Translations under genes and position numbers: made by a program | Shown: positions 4,607 through 52,960 of the stretch, piece after piece | Layout of the letters: each line of letters opens with the position of its first letter | Position numbering within the stretch: the first letter of the stretch is position 1 | Origin: Mucilaginibacter sp. UBA5151 | Lineage (GTDB): Bacteria > Bacteroidota > Bacteroidia > Sphingobacteriales > Sphingobacteriaceae | DNA length: 64,000 bases | Reading direction: 5' to 3' | Assembly: GCA_002413785.1 (NCBI GenBank) | Contig: DHXR01000052.1 | Coordinates: 7,380 to 71,379, forward strand | The notes under the pieces: generated by a model | The model's input: only the letters and a program-made list of their open reading frames with translations | What the model was told of the DNA's origin: nothing | Databases searched by the model: none

Positions 4607-4798
4607 GTGCCAGGCATGAAAGATTTCAGGGGCACCATCCTCTTTACCACGCGTGACCATGAGTTGGTTGAAACTGTAGCCAACAGGATTATAGAAATAA
4701 CCCCTGGCGGCACTATAGATAAGCTGATGACCTACGATGAGTATATCAACAGCGATGCGGTGCAGAAACAGCGGGATGAGTTGTACGCGATGGCTTAG
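4607..4798 (+). pseudogene. Orphan 3' fragment of an ABC-F family ATPase gene
   Basis: GMKDFRGTILFTTRDHELVETVANRIIEITPGGTIDKLMTYDEY matches the C-terminus of the second ABC domain of YbiT-like ABC-F proteins; no upstream gene body. Confidence 0.8.
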
Positions 4799-4914
4799 GT
4801 GAAGGGCGAAAGGTAAAAGGTGAAAGGTTTTCATCTCCAATTATGCTTCTTTCGGACTTTTCCGACTTTCGGACTTCAAAAAAAATCCGTTTATTTGCAG
4901 CCCGTCTTTACAAT

Positions 4915-11984: not shown

Positions 11985-12151
11985 AGAGATTAGAGACTGG
12001 AGATTAGAGATTAGTGCCTTTCTTTGGGGGTAATGAATAAAATAATCGACCATCCGTAAAACGCGAATATATAAATATCAAATTCTTTATTCTTTCGGAC
12101 TTCCAGTCGTTCCGACTAAAACTAATCTCTAATCACCAGCCTCTAATCTCT
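11985..12151. repeat. 167-bp element with 30-bp terminal inverted arms built from AGATTAG-type heptamers
   Basis: Left AGAGATTAGAGACTGGAGATTAGAGATTAG and right CTAATCTCTAATCACCAGCCTCTAATCTCT, 28/30 complementary. Confidence 0.85.
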
Positions 12152-13204
12152 AAATTCAACCCATGCCTTCAATCCGCCTTCCAAAGAAAACACCCTGGCA
12201 TCAGGATATTTCTGCTTAATAGCCTTAACAGCTTCCCCGCTTCTTTTGCCTGATGCACAGTAAAGCACCGTTTTAACATCTTTGTTTATTTGATCAAGAT
12301 CTGTAGTAAGCATATCTAATGGCATATTCCTGCCGCCTATGTTAAACTCCTTATGTTCCTGATCTGACCTTATATCTATCACTTCGATTGAATTTTCAGC
12401 AATAGCATTCTTTAGATCAGCAACCGAAATTGCAGGGATAATAACCGTCTCCATTAACCTTGTGATATGGATATTGGTTGTATCGCCAATTTTAATAATG
12501 CGGCTCTGCATTGTTTGCGCATCAAATATAAGCACCTTACCTGCAAGCAGTTTACCGGTTTTGGTAATGTATTTAATTACCTCATTAGCCTGCATACAGC
12601 CAATAATGCCGGCCAGTGTGGGGATCACCCCGCCTTCAGCGCAATTGGGGATTTTTGTAGCATCCACTTTTGGAAAAAGGTCGCGATAATTGGGCGACCT
12701 TGTGTCGTTTTCATTCTCAATGTTCCAAACTGCAACCTGTCCCTCGTATTGGTAAATAGCGCCGTAAACCAGCGGCCTGGCTGTCAACACCGCAGCATCA
12801 TTCAATAAATAACGGGTATCAAAATTATCGGTGCCATCTACCACAATATCATACTGCCACAGCAAATCCATCACATTATGCGACGTTACACGCACATCAT
12901 GGGGTACCAGTTTTATACCGGGATTTTGTTTTTGTAAATGCTCACAGGCTACGACGGCTTTTTTATGGCCCACATCCGCCGGGGAGAATAATACCTGACG
13001 ATGAAGGTTACTGATTGCAACCGTGTCGAAATCGGCAATACCCAACGTGCCTACGCCTGCTGCTGCCAAATACTGCGCGGCCGGACTGCCCAGCCCCCCG
13101 GCACCAACAATCAGTACCCTTGCATTTTGCAAAAGACGCTGGGCGCGTTCAGTAAAACCCGGCAAAGCGATCTGGCAACTGTATCGTAAGAAATCGGGGT
13201 TCAT
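12143..13204 (-). CDS. moeB: MoeB/ThiF adenylyltransferase with C-terminal rhodanese domain
   Basis: VGAGGLGSP, SNLHRQ, DGTDNF, rhodanese LYCASGKRS. Confidence 0.92.
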   Translation of the reverse strand: MNPDFLRYSCQIALPGFTERAQRLLQNARVLIVGAGGLGSPAAQYLAAAGVGTLGIADFDTVAISNLHRQVLFSPADVGHKKAVVACEHLQKQNPGIKLVPHDVRVTSHNVMDLLWQYDIVVDGTDNFDTRYLLNDAAVLTARPLVYGAIYQYEGQVAVWNIENENDTRSPNYRDLFPKVDATKIPNCAEGGVIPTLAGIIGCMQANEVIKYITKTGKLLAGKVLIFDAQTMQSRIIKIGDTTNIHITRLMETVIIPAISVADLKNAIAENSIEVIDIRSDQEHKEFNIGGRNMPLDMLTTDLDQINKDVKTVLYCASGKRSGEAVKAIKQKYPDARVFSLEGGLKAWVEFRD

Positions 13205-30854: not shown

Positions 30855-31063
30855 TTTTTTGAGTCCGAAAATCGGTAATTCCGAAAGATGATTTATCTTA
30901 AGTTTTCTACTTTCGGAACAATAAAACTGAAACAAAAAAGTTTAAAAGTCCGTAAACAATAAGTCCGGGACTTAAGAAAAGCTTTTTTTTCATTCTCGGA
31001 CTTACCAGACTTTTCGGACTTTCGGACTTTTTTAATTAACTTTGAATCAGAAATATAAATAAC

Positions 31064-36771: not shown

Positions 36772-37057
36772 GTTTAACCAGGAATTGTATCCGCCCTGTT
36801 CAAATGCTCCAAATTGACCATGGCGGAATTTATAGCCATCCGCTTTTCCGCCTTTGTTGGAGTTGTCTCCAACAAACCGTGTGCAAAGTAGAAACCATAA
36901 CCGAAGTGTTGTTGCAGATAGCCCAAAACCGCCTAACATCCCTGCTTTATGAAAGCATTGCGGAGTTGTCTGAACCCGAATTTATCGAATTAATGAATTT
37001 TTAGAATTCCGGTAATTCCTGAATTCTGTAAATTCTGATTCAGAAAAAAATGCAACC

Positions 37058-44825: not shown

Positions 44826-46160
44826 ATGAAGCATAACATCATCCTTACCAAAAAAAGCAAATCAGTAAAGGGTACCGTACACCTCACCGGTTCAAAAAGT
44901 GAATGTAACCGCGCCCTTATTATTGAAGCGCTGAGCAACGGTAAAGTAAAGGTTGAGAATATTTCGGATGCCGCGGATACGGTGACGCTCGCAGGTATCC
45001 TGCGGGCAGAGGTTAGAGATAAGAGATTAGAGATTAGTCAAACAAATAATTCCGGGGTTAATCCCCTAAGCTCTAATCTCCAATCTCCAATCTCTGAAAT
45101 CAACATCGGTCCTGCCGGCACGGCTATGCGCTTTTTAACGGCTTACTTCACTTTACAGCCTGCCTGCCGGACAGGCAGGGATGAAGAAGTGATTTTAACC
45201 GGCAGTGAACGCATGAAACAACGTCCGATAGGAATTTTGGTGGATGCTTTACGCGAACTGGGCGCGCATATTGAATACGTTGAAAACGAGGGTTTTCCCC
45301 CTATCAAATTGAAAGGCAGTCTGGAGCAGCTTTCTAATAAGGTCAGTATAAAAGGAAATATAAGCAGTCAGTACATCACTGCGCTATTGCTTATAGCTGC
45401 CCGGCTGCCTTTTGGTTTGGAATTAAATATTGAAGGAGAACTTACTTCGCGCCCTTATGTGGAGATGACACTGGCCATGCTGCAAACCGCAGGGATACAG
45501 CATACCTGGGAAGGCAATACCATCAGCATAAAACACCAGGAATTTACGCCAACCTTGTTGCATGTGGAACCGGATTGGAGCGCGGCTTCTTATTGGTACG
45601 CCATTGCAGCTTTGGCTGATGAAGCCGAATTGTTTTTACCAGGCTTAACGCAATACAGCCTGCAGGGCGACAGCGTGATCACGGAGATTATGGCTAATTT
45701 TGGCATCACCTCGCAGTTTAAAGATGGCGGTGTTTATTTACAGAAGGAAGTAAAACCGGTTATCCGCAAAATATTCGATCTGAAAGAATGTCCCGACCTG
45801 GCCCAAACCATCATCGTGGTATGCGCTGCATTAGGCCATGAAGCTACCTTTACAGGATTAGAAACTTTAAAGATCAAGGAAACCGACCGCATAAAGGCCC
45901 TGCAAAATGAGCTGGCAAAAATCGGCGTTAAGCTAATTGAAAAAGGACAGGTTTATAAACTGGATTGCAGCGAAAAATTCATCCCCGAACGTATATTTGT
46001 AAACACCTATGACGATCACCGCATGGCAATGGCCTTTGCGCCGCTGGCCCTGCTGATAAACGAAGTAGAAATTGAAGATGCGCAGGTAGTTGAAAAATCG
46101 TACCCCGCATTTTGGAAGGATTTGGAGAAGGTGGGATTTGAGGGAGAGATTAGAGGTTAG
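44826..46160 (+). CDS. aroA: EPSP synthase with two repeat-derived in-frame insertions
   Basis: GSKSECNR, GPAGTAMR, RMKQRP, SSQY, KETDR, DDHRMAM, KSYP. Confidence 0.96.
   Translation: MKHNIILTKKSKSVKGTVHLTGSKSECNRALIIEALSNGKVKVENISDAADTVTLAGILRAEVRDKRLEISQTNNSGVNPLSSNLQSPISEINIGPAGTAMRFLTAYFTLQPACRTGRDEEVILTGSERMKQRPIGILVDALRELGAHIEYVENEGFPPIKLKGSLEQLSNKVSIKGNISSQYITALLLIAARLPFGLELNIEGELTSRPYVEMTLAMLQTAGIQHTWEGNTISIKHQEFTPTLLHVEPDWSAASYWYAIAALADEAELFLPGLTQYSLQGDSVITEIMANFGITSQFKDGGVYLQKEVKPVIRKIFDLKECPDLAQTIIVVCAALGHEATFTGLETLKIKETDRIKALQNELAKIGVKLIEKGQVYKLDCSEKFIPERIFVNTYDDHRMAMAFAPLALLINEVEIEDAQVVEKSYPAFWKDLEKVGFEGEIRG
45008..45095. repeat. Heptamer-arm inverted-repeat element inside aroA
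   Basis: Left arm 26/30 identical to 11985-12014; right arm 45066-45095. Confidence 0.85.
45159..45179. repeat. 21-bp palindrome inside aroA, encoding PACRTGR
   Basis: CCTGCCTG-CCGGA-CAGGCAGG, exactly 7 codons. Confidence 0.85.
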
Positions 46161-46274
46161 AGATTGGAGATTAGAAGGAGCCTGATCTCCAGGCCCTAAA
46201 AAAACCAATGACACAATGACTAATGACAAAAAAATCGGTGCAATCATAAAAAAATCGGTGTAATCACAAAAAAT

Positions 46275-47432: not shown

Positions 47433-47480
47433 CATCCGCACATCTGCATATCTGCACATCTGCACATCTGCACATCTGCA
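47433..47480. repeat. Six tandem CATCTGCA octamers
   Basis: Two units carry one substitution; ends about 10 bp before the TATCTTTG promoter motif. Confidence 0.9.
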
Positions 47481-47505
47481 CATTTAATAATATCTTTGTT
47501 CAACA

Positions 47506-52488: not shown

Positions 52489-52960
52489 GATAAGTCTTTT
52501 GTTTTTTTAGTTAACCCCCTGTCGGGGAAATTGTTTTTACAGATTGGTTTTAACCTGTTATTTTTTATTAAAATTAATAATCCATAACACATCGGCAAGA
52601 TATATAATTATGCTTAACAAACAAGCAGGATTATTTATTTGTTATTAACACATTATTGAATTAAAATTAGCACCAATCGGGGTAAAGATACGGGCACATA
52701 TTTAAGGTGAATCAAGAGCCAAGAGTCAAGAACCAAGAGTTAAGAAAAAGACAGCCGGGTTGAAGAAATTGACCAAAATGGAACAATTTAAGCAAACCTG
52801 TCAGCACAGTACTTTAAACTGCGTTGCTCTTTACTTTTTATCTTGATTCCTGGCTCTAATATCTTGACTTTTGATTCGCATATTTTATTAAAATTTGGAA
52901 CTATTAACATTAAGTGGTAGTTTAACCTTATTAAATTATAGCATACAAAAACAACAAATA

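What the first reader, a model, noticed from the sequence alone, without database searches (positions are those of the whole stretch)
45008..45095. Heptamer-arm element inserted in frame in aroA, adding about 29 residues
Seen: residues ~62-90 (EVRDKRLEISQTNNSGVNPLSSNLQSPIS) are encoded by an 88-bp inverted-repeat element whose arms match the intergenic element at 11985-12151; the frame stays open. Known: Rickettsia palindromic elements create peptide inserts this way; from memory, Bacteroidota AroA is short here while E. coli AroA has a longer segment. Inference: a selfish repeat generating new protein sequence in a core enzyme, the glyphosate target.
Basis: partly seen in the sequence, partly recalled or inferred. 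Interest (0 to 1): 0.75.

Follow-up and report, generated by a model that had tools for sequence, protein, structure and literature searches.

The report
In-frame heptamer hairpin cassette in aroA
A 90-base hairpin built from 7-base repeats is translated as a floppy surface loop inside the essential enzyme EPSP synthase of a soil Mucilaginibacter. It is one allele of a block that every species of the genus carries at this spot and that differs even between close relatives. It is a clear but not unique case of repeat DNA living inside core genes.

Summary
Window 45007-45096 is an imperfect inverted repeat (31-nt arms, 84% complementary, 28-nt centre) made of four GAGRTTR units and four YAAYCTC units. 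It lies in frame in the single aroA gene, and its arms match the element at 11985-12153.

The organism is a Mucilaginibacter whose genome holds about 900 short tandem arrays of 7-9 nt, many paired as hairpins. In-frame copies also sit in about 18 other housekeeping genes, including valS, lpxK, folC, ispG and uvrA. About 60 other Bacteroidota have a tight loop at this aroA site, whereas every Mucilaginibacter AroA examined has a repeat-derived insert there.

The insert is not new to this genome. The same cassette, with the same stop-removing unit, occurs in at least nine other lineages. The block 44987-45101 differs completely between near-identical genes.

The arms are conserved at the nucleotide level without codon periodicity, and the centre is free to vary. 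AlphaFold2 gives a confident EPSPS fold with residues 67-87 disordered. All seven PF05635 ("23S rRNA intervening-sequence protein") genes of the genome lie between such inverted arrays, one pair of this same family.

The most likely reading is a tolerated, gene-less, IVS-like hairpin. Earlier notes of this scan describe similar hairpins in other genomes.

The parts
44826..46160 (+). aroA (EPSP synthase, 444 aa), the only copy in the genome. It is the host gene of the insert.
   Evidence: ORF found. One match in the genome itself. Best solved relatives are class I EPSPS, E about 1e-60. All 55 invariant columns of a 66-sequence alignment, by construction, carry the invariant residue in this protein, e.g. 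K24, R29, D51, G98, T99, R102. AlphaFold2 mean pLDDT is 91.3.
44987..45101 (+). Cassette block, the 115 nt that differ completely from the closest relative. It encodes LAGILRA plus the hairpin plus SEI.
   Evidence: In the DNA alignment with P0015 (L121) the flanks are about 90% identical (5' 92%, 3' 89%) right up to ...GATACGGTGAC and again from AACATCGG; between them there is no similarity. A second pair shows the same pattern.
45007..45037 (+). Left arm: C-A plus four heptamers GAGGTTA GAGATAA GAGATTA GAGATTA plus G. It encodes (A)EVRDKRLEIS.
   Evidence: The unit GAGATAA replaces GAGATTA exactly where GAT TAG would be an in-frame stop. This change is shared, or further altered, in all type-A alleles.
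45038..45065 (+). Centre of the hairpin, 28 nt, with a small CCGGGG/CCCC sub-stem. It encodes QTNNSGVNP.
   Evidence: Unique in the genome. 21 of 28 columns vary among seven type-A alleles, and there are indels. pLDDT is below 50.
45066..45096 (+). Right arm: C plus TAAGCTC TAATCTC CAATCTC CAATCTC plus T-G. It encodes LSSNLQSPIS.
   Evidence: The unit that would give an in-frame TAA reads CAA.
45159..45179 (+). Second, independent in-frame insert: the perfect 8-bp palindrome CCTGCCTG-CCGGA-CAGGCAGG, which encodes PACRTGR.
   Evidence: Absent from all 19 orthologues aligned (18 of the genus plus the outgroup) and from P0015. Present in scattered homologues P0016, P0018, P0020 and P0059. Four copies in the genome. 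pLDDT block 111-120 is 62.
46145..46175 (+). Solo family-A array (4.4 units) that supplies the last residues (EIRG) and the TAG stop codon (46158-46160) of aroA.
   Evidence: The orthologues' C-terminal tails differ and are also repeat-like.
11985..12014 (+).
12122..12153 (+). Right arm of that intergenic hairpin, after a 107-109-nt centre.
   Evidence: At the orthologous site, family-A arms with other centres occur in G051 and G040, other arrays in other species, and about 45 nt with no array in G049.

Best explanation
The 90-bp element is a gene-less member of a Mucilaginibacter class of hairpins whose arms are short tandem arrays of 7-9-nt units. This one belongs to the GAGRTTR/YAAYCTC family ('family A'). 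It sits in frame in the loop between the first long helix and the strand leading into the GPAGTAMR motif of EPSP synthase. At that position E. coli-type enzymes have a beta-hairpin and other Bacteroidota have only a tight turn.

Shown:
- It forms a strong hairpin.
- It is translated in frame because particular unit variants remove the stop codons that a perfect array would carry in every frame.
- The peptide is predicted to be a disordered surface excursion of an otherwise intact enzyme.
- All genus orthologues examined carry some repeat-built cassette at the same site.
- This cassette type is an old aroA-specific allele, with shared centre and shared stop-removing change, whose distribution conflicts with the gene tree.
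- The arms are conserved as nucleotides rather than as codons.
- Arrays in homologues grow in 21-nt (three-unit, seven-residue) steps.
- Full-size relatives of these hairpins carry a PF05635 'intervening-sequence protein' gene between the same kind of arms.

Inferred:
- A hairpin element of the IVS type entered this permissive loop in an ancestor of the genus or family.
- It cannot be removed cleanly, so selection only keeps the frame open and stop-free.
- The cassette then diversified by slippage and was exchanged between lineages by homologous recombination through the conserved flanks.
- For the enzyme the peptide is a tolerated passenger.
- Any activity lies in the nucleic acid. For example the arms may be a recognition or cleavage site, as RNase III cuts the stems of IVS elements.
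For: Anatomy and chance.

Genome-wide class:
- 895 arrays of period 7/8/9 and their multiples. 544 are intergenic, 143 overlap ORF 3' ends and 90 lie inside ORFs, although ORFs cover 85% of the genome.
- Family A has 56 left arms, 64 right arms and 33 paired elements with centres of 11-149 nt.
- In-frame copies, confirmed by Pfam and by sequence, lie in gltX, uvrA, mnmE, prmC, recN, pheS, a class-III aminotransferase gene, bshC, valS, lysA, hisS, ispG, mqnA, lpxK, folC, kdtA, an E2 acyltransferase gene and radA.

Site history:
- The segment is 34 aa in about 60 Bacteroidota, 35-51 in Sphingobacterium, Daejeonella and Pedobacter, and 43-79 in Mucilaginibacter.
- Every genus orthologue's insert is made of tandem units, of different kinds.

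Allele age: loop DNA is 75-88% identical to six other type-A genes, against 79-88% for the core, and all share the GATAAG change.

Block swap. The nearest core relative, P0015 (96% amino-acid identity), has another cassette type. The AU test rejects type-A holders as one clade, p = 7e-5.

Constraint, as share of variable columns at codon positions 1/2/3:
- Core 24/10/79%, arms 38/33/45%, centre 89/67/70%.
- Fisher p = 0.0012 for position 3 and 0.0057 for positions 1+2.

Structure: mean pLDDT 91.3, with residues 67-87 below 50.

Three-unit steps: 7-aa peptide repeats in P0014, P0018 and P0066.

IVS link:
- Of the 7 PF05635 genes, 6 lie between inverted 7-9-nt arrays and the seventh, at a contig end, has an array on its one readable side. 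The pair at G000 C2:9379-9920 is family A.
- The Coxiella IVS has a 28-bp terminal stem cut by RNase III and variable heptamer repeats (PMC4990558).
Against: - No compensatory changes support selection on pairing: 84.8% of cells are paired against 85.1% in shuffles.
- An element's own arms are hardly more complementary to each other than to the arms of other elements (0.84 vs 0.83, p = 0.07).
- No target-site duplication was seen and no transposase could be linked. The nine Y1_Tnp hits are not flanked by arrays.
- No second copy of the whole cassette exists in the genome, so no act of insertion was observed.
- Low third-position change in the arms could partly reflect a younger common ancestor of exchanged cassettes rather than constraint.
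- The ORF set used for the census is a crude longest-ORF call, not a gene prediction.
Confidence: 0.7

Rival explanations
1. The hairpin is a home-grown microsatellite. The arrays arose on the spot by replication slippage of native codons and fold-back copying, without any mobile or family-level process. Resemblance to other loci is convergence.
For: - Arrays occupy the same orthologous sites in most species: aroA, valS and the 11985 spacer.
- The native strand codons GAAATCAAC (E-I-N) look like the seed of the GAAATCN arrays of type-B alleles.
- Copy number clearly changes by slippage. There are 14 perfect TAATCTC units in G069, 20 or more perfect GAGGTTA units in G058 and 7-aa peptide repeats in homologues.
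- No TSD and no transposase were found.
Against: - The same degenerate unit GAGRTTR builds about 120 arms at unrelated loci of this genome.
- It is very patchy in the genus: 0 matches in 22 of 61 genomes and up to 322 in others.
- The same families of arms enclose PF05635 genes.
- The arms are kept close to the family consensus at third codon positions.
Confidence: 0.15
2. The insert is kept because it is useful. One version is that the loop functionally replaces the beta-hairpin that Bacteroidota EPSPS lost. The other is that the mRNA hairpin tunes aroA expression as an RNase III site, a pause or an attenuator.
For: - No Mucilaginibacter examined has gone back to the short form.
- The G000 segment is exactly as long as the E. 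coli one, 60 residues.
- The arms are conserved beyond synonymous expectation.
- Hairpins are strong in most orthologues, -16 to -50 kcal/mol.
Against: - Length ranges from 43 to 79 residues and sequence types are unrelated.
- The peptide is predicted disordered.
- There is no codon-position signature of protein selection and no covariation for the stem.
- Some alleles (types B and E, L003, L004, L008) have non-complementary arms.
- The same kind of insert sits in about 18 unrelated genes.
Confidence: 0.12
3. The feature is an assembly artefact, or aroA is a decaying pseudogene.
For: Tandem and inverted repeats are prone to mis-assembly, and raw reads could not be checked.
Against: - The same 129-nt region, gap-free and in frame, occurs in independent assemblies.
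- The gene is single-copy in a genome rated 100% complete, and lies between intact DAHP synthase/chorismate mutase and chorismate synthase genes.
- All invariant residues are present and the fold is confidently predicted.
Confidence: 0.02

Closest known systems
Rickettsia palindromic elements (RPE; Ogata et al. 2000, as summarised in the MITE review PMC10969869)
   Same: Hairpin-forming repeats inserted in frame into many unrelated housekeeping genes. They are translated as extra surface peptides that the proteins tolerate.
   Different: RPEs are about 100-150 bp with a conserved sequence and a conserved peptide over their whole length. Here only the arms are shared, the arms are tandem 7-9-nt arrays, the centre is locus-specific, and the phylum and lifestyle differ. 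The orthologous site also holds different repeat families in different species.
Heptanucleotide tandem repeats of bacteria (cyanobacterial STRR sequences; TAACTGA repeats of Beggiatoaceae, Cyanobacteria and some Bacteroidetes, PMC4679880; heptamer repeats of Xanthomonas and Nostoc, PMC4692102)
   Same: Many arrays of a few 7-nt units, mostly intergenic, patchy between relatives, with variable copy number and unknown origin.
   Different: The published cases are mainly direct repeats in spacers. Here the arrays come as inverted pairs forming hairpins, many unit families coexist, and copies are translated inside essential genes.
Intervening sequences (IVS) of 23S rRNA carrying an S23p/PF05635 ORF (Coxiella burnetii, PMC4990558; Leptospira, Salmonella)
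   Same: A long terminal stem encloses either nothing or a PF05635 four-helix-bundle gene. The Coxiella IVS also has variable heptamer repeats. Both are selfish and tolerated inside an essential gene product.
   Different: A classical IVS sits in helices 25 or 45 of 23S rRNA and is cut out of the RNA by RNase III. This copy sits in an mRNA and must be translated through. No excision was shown, and the 23S rRNA of this genome is not assembled.
Tandem repeats of Borg elements that create disordered protein regions (PMC9879509)
   Same: Fast-evolving tandem repeats inside ORFs that add low-complexity, disordered segments.
   Different: From my own recollection of that paper (it was listed but not opened), Borg repeat units inside genes are multiples of three. 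Here the unit is 7 or 8 nt, so only three-unit steps or matched changes keep the frame, and the arrays are paired as hairpins.

Membership tests
Rickettsia palindromic elements | Palindromic repeat inserted in frame in many protein-coding genes | tested here: met
   aroA plus about 18 other housekeeping genes.
Rickettsia palindromic elements | Copies share sequence, and a conserved peptide, over the whole element | tested here: not met
   The centre is unique in the genome and only the arms recur. Centres of 33 family-A elements range from 11 to 149 nt and looked unrelated where read.
Heptanucleotide simple-sequence repeats (STRR-like) | Tandem arrays of a 7-nt unit, repeated at many loci, mostly intergenic | tested here: met
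   TRF finds 514 period-7 arrays of at least 3 copies. The families AATCTCT, AACCATG, AAAGGTG, AAATCCG and others were seen, and arrays are enriched outside ORFs.
S23p-type intervening sequence (IVS) | Terminal inverted repeats forming a long stem | tested here: met
   31-nt arms, -36 kcal/mol, z = -5.
S23p-type intervening sequence (IVS) | PF05635 ORF in the loop | tested here: not met
   This copy has a 28-nt centre and no ORF. For the class as a whole the feature is largely met: of the 7 PF05635 genes, 6 lie between inverted arrays and the seventh, at a contig end, has an array on its one readable side. One pair is family A.
S23p-type intervening sequence (IVS) | Located in 23S rRNA and excised by RNase III | not testable with these tools
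   No 23S rRNA in the assembly. No RNA reads were available.
MITE | Terminal inverted repeats with target-site duplication and a related autonomous IS | tested here: not met
   No TSD was visible in the flanks of 33 elements, and no transposase was linked.
REP/REPIN with RAYT | A Y1 transposase gene flanked by its own repeats | tested here: not met
   Nine Y1_Tnp matches were found. The three strong ones have no 7-9-nt arrays within 1.2 kb; two weak ones have unrelated arrays nearby, not as flanking inverted pairs.
Diversity-generating retroelement (Avd is a PF05635 relative; from my own knowledge) | A DGR-type reverse transcriptase with template and variable repeats | tested here: not met
   All four RT genes carry the group II intron maturase domain.
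EPSP synthase (host gene) | PF00275 fold with conserved catalytic residues | tested here: met
   Homologues carry PF00275. Class I PDB matches at E about 1e-60. Invariant residues are present. pLDDT is 91.3.

The most novel reading that the evidence does not exclude
The heptamer-armed hairpins may be the footprints of an active, so far undescribed homing or copy-replacement system. In this reading the PF05635 (Avd-like) four-helix-bundle protein carried by the full-size elements recognises the tandem-unit arms, so that cassettes at fixed sites, including loops of essential genes, are rewritten as blocks. This would explain three things at once: the nucleotide-level conservation of the arms, the free centre, and block-wise replacement between precise boundaries in near-identical genes.
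Probability: 0.15. Interest if true: 0.85.

Novelty: new variant of a known kind. Interest (0 to 1): 0.6.

Why it matters
Selfish repeats translated inside core enzymes are textbook only for Rickettsia. Here the same behaviour appears in free-living soil Bacteroidota, with a different kind of repeat: tandem 7-9-nt units paired as hairpins.

The case links three poorly understood things: the heptamer repeats of bacteria, the intervening sequences of rRNA, and the PF05635 protein family.

The aroA site offers a clean natural experiment. One permissive loop next to the glyphosate-binding motif holds at least six unrelated cassette types across a genus. This allows direct tests of three questions: how much foreign, disordered sequence an essential enzyme tolerates, how a frame is kept with units that are not multiples of three, and whether the arms are maintained by a nucleic-acid-level function.

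In practical terms, such cassettes inflate apparent protein divergence and can mislead alignment, phylogeny and recombination analysis in these genomes.

Tried and rejected
- Covariation in the stem among seven type-A alleles: none.
- Mirror-image unit variants within an element, own arms against other elements' arms: not significant.
- Terminator role: inverted pairs lie in tandem, divergent and convergent spacers in about the background proportions (37/13/10 against 1702/566/477), so no depletion from divergent spacers.
- RAYT or IS200-type transposase as mobiliser: nine Y1_Tnp hits, none flanked by arrays.
- Reverse-transcriptase or DGR link: only group II intron RTs.
- Known RNA family: only a chance miRNA-hairpin hit, E = 0.73.
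- Donor copy of the cassette inside the genome: none.
- Match between the aroA cassette type and the genome's dominant repeat family: weak. Two of 5 family-A-rich genomes have type A, none of 18 others does, and the richest genome (G051) has type C.
- A cargo-bearing version at the orthologous 11985 site in G033: no PF05635 ORF there.
- IVS in the genome's own 23S rRNA: the gene is not assembled.
- The reversed-pattern control is uninformative, because the reversed unit is a rotation of the unit itself.
- Literature searches found no paper on such hairpins in Mucilaginibacter or Pedobacter. The Elhai 2008 paper on small dispersed repeats, which I recall from memory, is not in the library.
Full report
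**1. The observation**

Window 45007-45096 is an imperfect inverted repeat. The arms are 31 nt long and 84% complementary, with 28 nt between them. As RNA it folds at -36.3 kcal/mol (z = -4.98), and none of 200 shuffles folds as well.

Each arm is a run of four heptamers. The left arm reads GAGGTTA GAGATAA GAGATTA GAGATTA and the right arm TAAGCTC TAATCTC CAATCTC CAATCTC. Two units with up to three mismatches match 15 times in the window against 0.34 expected.

The ORF 44826-46160 (444 aa) is open across the element.

**2. The host gene**

- The ORF is the only EPSP synthase of the genome.
- It lies between a DAHP synthase/chorismate mutase gene and chorismate synthase (neighbour domains in relatives).
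- Its best solved relatives are class I enzymes such as the E. coli enzyme, E about 1e-60.
- By construction, all 55 invariant columns of a 66-sequence Bacteroidota alignment carry the invariant residue in this protein.
- AlphaFold2 on that alignment gives mean pLDDT 91.3 and pTM 0.89.
- Two stretches have low confidence. Residues 67-87 are below 50, and the block 111-120 scores 62. The left arm is modelled as a low-confidence extension of helix 50-72.
- These two stretches are exactly the hairpin insert and a second insert described in section 9.

**3. The organism and its repeats**

Record titles of related loci place the genome in Mucilaginibacter, family Sphingobacteriaceae. The genome is 4.74 Mb in 87 contigs, with 41% G+C.

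Tandem Repeats Finder gives a sharp excess of periods 7, 8 and 9. After merging there are 895 arrays of these periods and their multiples, with many different units. Using a crude longest-ORF gene set that covers 85% of the genome, the arrays fall as follows:

| Position of array | Number |
|---|---|
| Intergenic | 544 |
| Overlapping an ORF 3' end | 143 |
| Overlapping an ORF 5' end | 69 |
| Within the first 60 nt of an ORF | 43 |
| Within the last 30 nt of an ORF | 6 |
| Elsewhere inside an ORF | 90 |

Many arrays are paired with the complementary array a few tens of bases away. TRF calls alone give 62 such pairs, with a median centre of 38 nt.

For the unit of the aroA element, GAGRTTR ('family A'), a fuzzy search finds 56 left arms, 64 right arms and 33 paired elements. 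Their centres are 11-149 nt long, and those I read looked unrelated.

Inverted pairs occur in tandem, divergent and convergent spacers in about the proportions of the background. They therefore do not behave like dedicated terminators.

**4. aroA is not the only gene affected**

Twenty long ORFs with internal arrays were fetched and scanned. Eighteen are clear housekeeping genes with an array or a full hairpin translated in frame:

- gltX, uvrA, mnmE, prmC, recN, pheS, bshC, valS, lysA
- a class-III aminotransferase gene
- hisS (two sites), ispG (two sites), folC (two sites)
- mqnA, lpxK, kdtA, radA
- an E2 acyltransferase gene

One apparent case was a wrong-strand ORF and one lies in a 5' leader.

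The valS hairpin is almost perfect (-61.7 kcal/mol). The uvrA and aminotransferase inserts use the same family-A right arm and give peptides such as LNSNLQSPTS, like LSSNLQSPIS in AroA. The comparison with Rickettsia palindromic elements, which the review PMC10969869 describes as the extreme case of in-frame repeat insertion, therefore holds for behaviour.

**5. What orthologues have at the site**

The segment was measured from the conserved N(L/I)S..DT to AGTxMRFL:

| Group | Length (residues) |
|---|---|
| About 60 genomes from across Bacteroidota | 34 (35 in two) |
| Sphingobacterium | 35-40 |
| Daejeonella | 42 |
| Pedobacter | 40-51 |
| Mucilaginibacter | 43-79 |
| This genome | 60 |

Sixty residues happens also to be the length in E. 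coli, where the segment forms a beta-hairpin.

All 18 genus genomes searched and all 117 scorable close homologues from the protein collection have an insert here. At the DNA level each of the 18 genus inserts read as DNA is built from tandem units, but of different kinds:

- AAGTCNN with GACTYNN
- GAAGTCN with GAAATCN
- GCAGTTR with TCACYCA
- CATGGAC
- an octamer, GAAGTCCG

The peptides fall into a few recurring types:

- Type A: ...DKRLEIS...NLQSPIS
- Type B: ...SEIEHPKSEINI
- Type C: ...KSKVESQ...QDLRLVNI
- Type D: ...HHSPL...
- Types E and F

Seven-residue peptide repeats in P0014, P0018 and P0066 show growth in steps of three units (21 nt), the only step that keeps the frame.

**6. Age and exchange of the cassette**

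Type A is not private to this genome. It occurs in P0002, P0003, P0004, P0008, P0009, P0012, P0017, P0023 and in genome G053. Genome G033 carries the same loop as P0003.

For six of these alleles I fetched DNA. Three findings bear on age:

- The 129-nt loop region aligns with few or no gaps. It is 75-88% identical to the window, against 79-88% for the rest of the gene.
- The centres are recognisably related.
- All alleles share, or have further changed, the unit GAGATAA. A perfect (GAGATTA)3 has TAG in all three frames. In aroA the unit that would read GAT TAG reads GAT AAG, and in the right arm the in-frame TAA is CAA.

These alleles therefore descend from one ancestral cassette at this locus.

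The cassette's distribution nevertheless conflicts with the gene tree. A tree of the protein without the loop needs 48 changes of cassette type among 117 rows. The window's nearest relative, P0015 (96% core identity), has type C. An AU test rejects the type-A holders as one clade, p = 7e-5, with the caveat that the group was named after a first tree had been seen.

DNA alignments of two near-identical pairs show that the difference is a block with sharp edges. Window versus P0015 is about 90% identical (5' core 92%, 3' core 89%) up to ...GATACGGTGAC (44986) and again from AACATCGG (45102), with no similarity between. P0092 versus P0109 behaves the same way.

No second copy of the cassette or its centre exists in the genome. 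The blocks are therefore aroA-specific alleles. The most economical reading is exchange between lineages by homologous recombination through the conserved flanks, or long-lived polymorphism. Repeated insertion is less economical.

The type in aroA follows the genome's dominant repeat family only weakly.

**7. What is constrained**

Among seven type-A genes, the share of variable columns at each codon position is:

| Region | Position 1 | Position 2 | Position 3 |
|---|---|---|---|
| Gene core | 24% | 10% | 79% |
| Two arms | 38% | 33% | 45% |
| Centre | 89% | 67% | 70% |

The core shows the usual signature of selection on the protein. Third positions of the arms change less than synonymous-type sites of the gene (Fisher p = 0.0012). 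First and second positions change more (p = 0.0057). The centre also carries indels.

The peptide therefore looks unconstrained, while the arm sequence is held at the nucleotide level. Pairing itself is not demonstrably selected. 84.8% of cells are paired against 85.1% in shuffles. Across 32 family-A elements, an element's own arms are hardly more complementary to each other than to foreign arms (0.84 vs 0.83, p = 0.07).

What is kept is thus closeness to the family consensus. Three explanations remain open: a sequence-specific role of the units, homogenisation, or partly a younger common ancestor of exchanged cassettes.

**8. Other sites behave alike**

In valS, all eight outgroup families and three Mucilaginibacter genomes have a tight beta-turn. 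Most of the other genus genomes carry inserts of about 8-40 residues of several types. The closest relative keeps the left arm of the window genome's hairpin but lacks the right arm.

At the orthologous spacer of the 11985 element the picture is as follows:

- G051 and G040 have family-A arms around different centres.
- G069 has 14 perfect TAATCTC units.
- Other species have other arrays.
- G049 has about 45 nt without any array.

Family A is very patchy in the genus: no match in 22 of 61 genomes, and up to 322 matches in others.

**9. Link to intervening sequences**

Earlier notes of this scan on other Mucilaginibacter and Chitinophagaceae genomes proposed that these hairpins are gene-less versions of cassettes carrying a PF05635 '23S rRNA intervening-sequence protein' gene. 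I tested this here.

The genome has seven PF05635 genes. Six lie between inverted arrays of 7-9-nt units. The seventh sits at a contig end and has an array on its one readable side. The pair at G000 C2:9379-9920 has family-A arms.

The Coxiella IVS paper describes a 28-bp terminal stem cut by RNase III, an S23p ORF in the loop, and variable heptamer repeats next to the cleavage site (PMC4990558). This makes IVS elements the closest described relatives of the class. The aroA copy is a gene-less member sitting in an mRNA rather than an rRNA.

Several further checks gave nothing:

- No transposase could be tied to the arrays.
- All four reverse transcriptases are group II intron maturases.
- Rfam has no family for the hairpin.
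- The genome's 23S rRNA is not assembled.

The second aroA insert lies at 45159-45179. It is a perfect 8-bp palindrome that encodes PACRTGR and belongs to another small repeat family. It has four copies in the genome, and the other three are attached to a different REP-like element. It is scattered among homologues.

**10. Verdict**

The element is real and is a translated hairpin repeat in a core enzyme. It is an old, exchanged allele of a genus-wide cassette site, not a fresh insertion.

The best-supported mechanism is toleration. An IVS-like hairpin entered a permissive loop long ago. Selection keeps it in frame and free of stops. Slippage and recombination then reshuffle it. I put this at about 0.7.

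Purely local slippage (0.15) and a useful role of the loop or of the mRNA hairpin (0.12) remain possible. An artefact is practically excluded.

I found no published description of such in-frame tandem-unit hairpins in Bacteroidota housekeeping genes. The kind of thing is nevertheless known from RPEs, heptamer repeats and IVS elements, so I class it as a new variant of a known kind. This scan has met similar hairpins before on other DNA.

Noticed in passing
window 46145-46270: The aroA stop codon (TAG, 46158-46160) and the last four residues come from a solo family-A array. Downstream follow three AATGAC(A/T) heptamers and a 20-nt direct repeat (AAAAAAATCGGTG[C/T]AATCA twice) before aroC. Genome-wide, 143 arrays overlap ORF 3' ends, so arrays often supply C-terminal tails and stops.
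   Followed up: partly
window 45159-45179: A 21-bp perfect palindrome encoding PACRTGR, in frame in aroA. It is absent from all 19 orthologues aligned but present in scattered homologues as PAGRTGG and similar. The genome has four copies, and the other three abut a different REP-like element (CCTCCGCCAG...CCCCCTCTAAA).
   Followed up: partly
G000 contigs C1, C3, C8, C13-C16, C21, C22, C28, C52, C55, C63 (loci L101-L120): In-frame 7-8-nt arrays or full hairpins in about 18 housekeeping genes: gltX, uvrA, mnmE, prmC, recN, pheS, bshC, valS, lysA, hisS, ispG, mqnA, lpxK, folC, kdtA, an E2 acyltransferase gene, radA and an aminotransferase gene.
   Followed up: partly
G000 C2:9379-9920, C5:113820-114274, C8:100100-100680, C3:3509-4091, C87:33195-33682, C15:60180-60705, C35:93266-93723: All seven PF05635 (23S rRNA intervening-sequence protein) genes have arrays of 7-9-nt units beside them, each with its own unit family. 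Six lie between inverted pairs; the C35 gene is at a contig end and has an array on one side only.
   Followed up: yes
L007 and L019 (aroA loops of G014 and G016); L017 upstream; L005 C-terminus: Another repeat, CCCTCTCC-TTTG-GAGAGGG followed by CTGGGGTGAGG, giving peptides such as PSPLERAGVR or PSVEGLGGAL, is also translated inside the same aroA loop in some species.
   Followed up: no
L159 (G069) and G058, G036 places listed: Some species hold long perfect arrays: 14 TAATCTC units at the orthologous spacer in G069, and 20 or more GAGGTTA units in G058. The arrays are therefore active microsatellites.
   Followed up: no
window 45108-45140: The conserved motif reads GPAGTAMRFL. The residue aligned with E. 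coli Pro101 is Phe in this and almost all the Bacteroidota AroA sequences compared. From my own knowledge, changes at Pro101 lower glyphosate sensitivity. This is not part of the finding.
   Followed up: no
window 47433-47483: An octamer array, CATCTGCA x6.4, lies just downstream of aroC. Further arrays in the window lie at 4797-4876, 30996-31031, 36977-37008 and 52712-52746.
   Followed up: no
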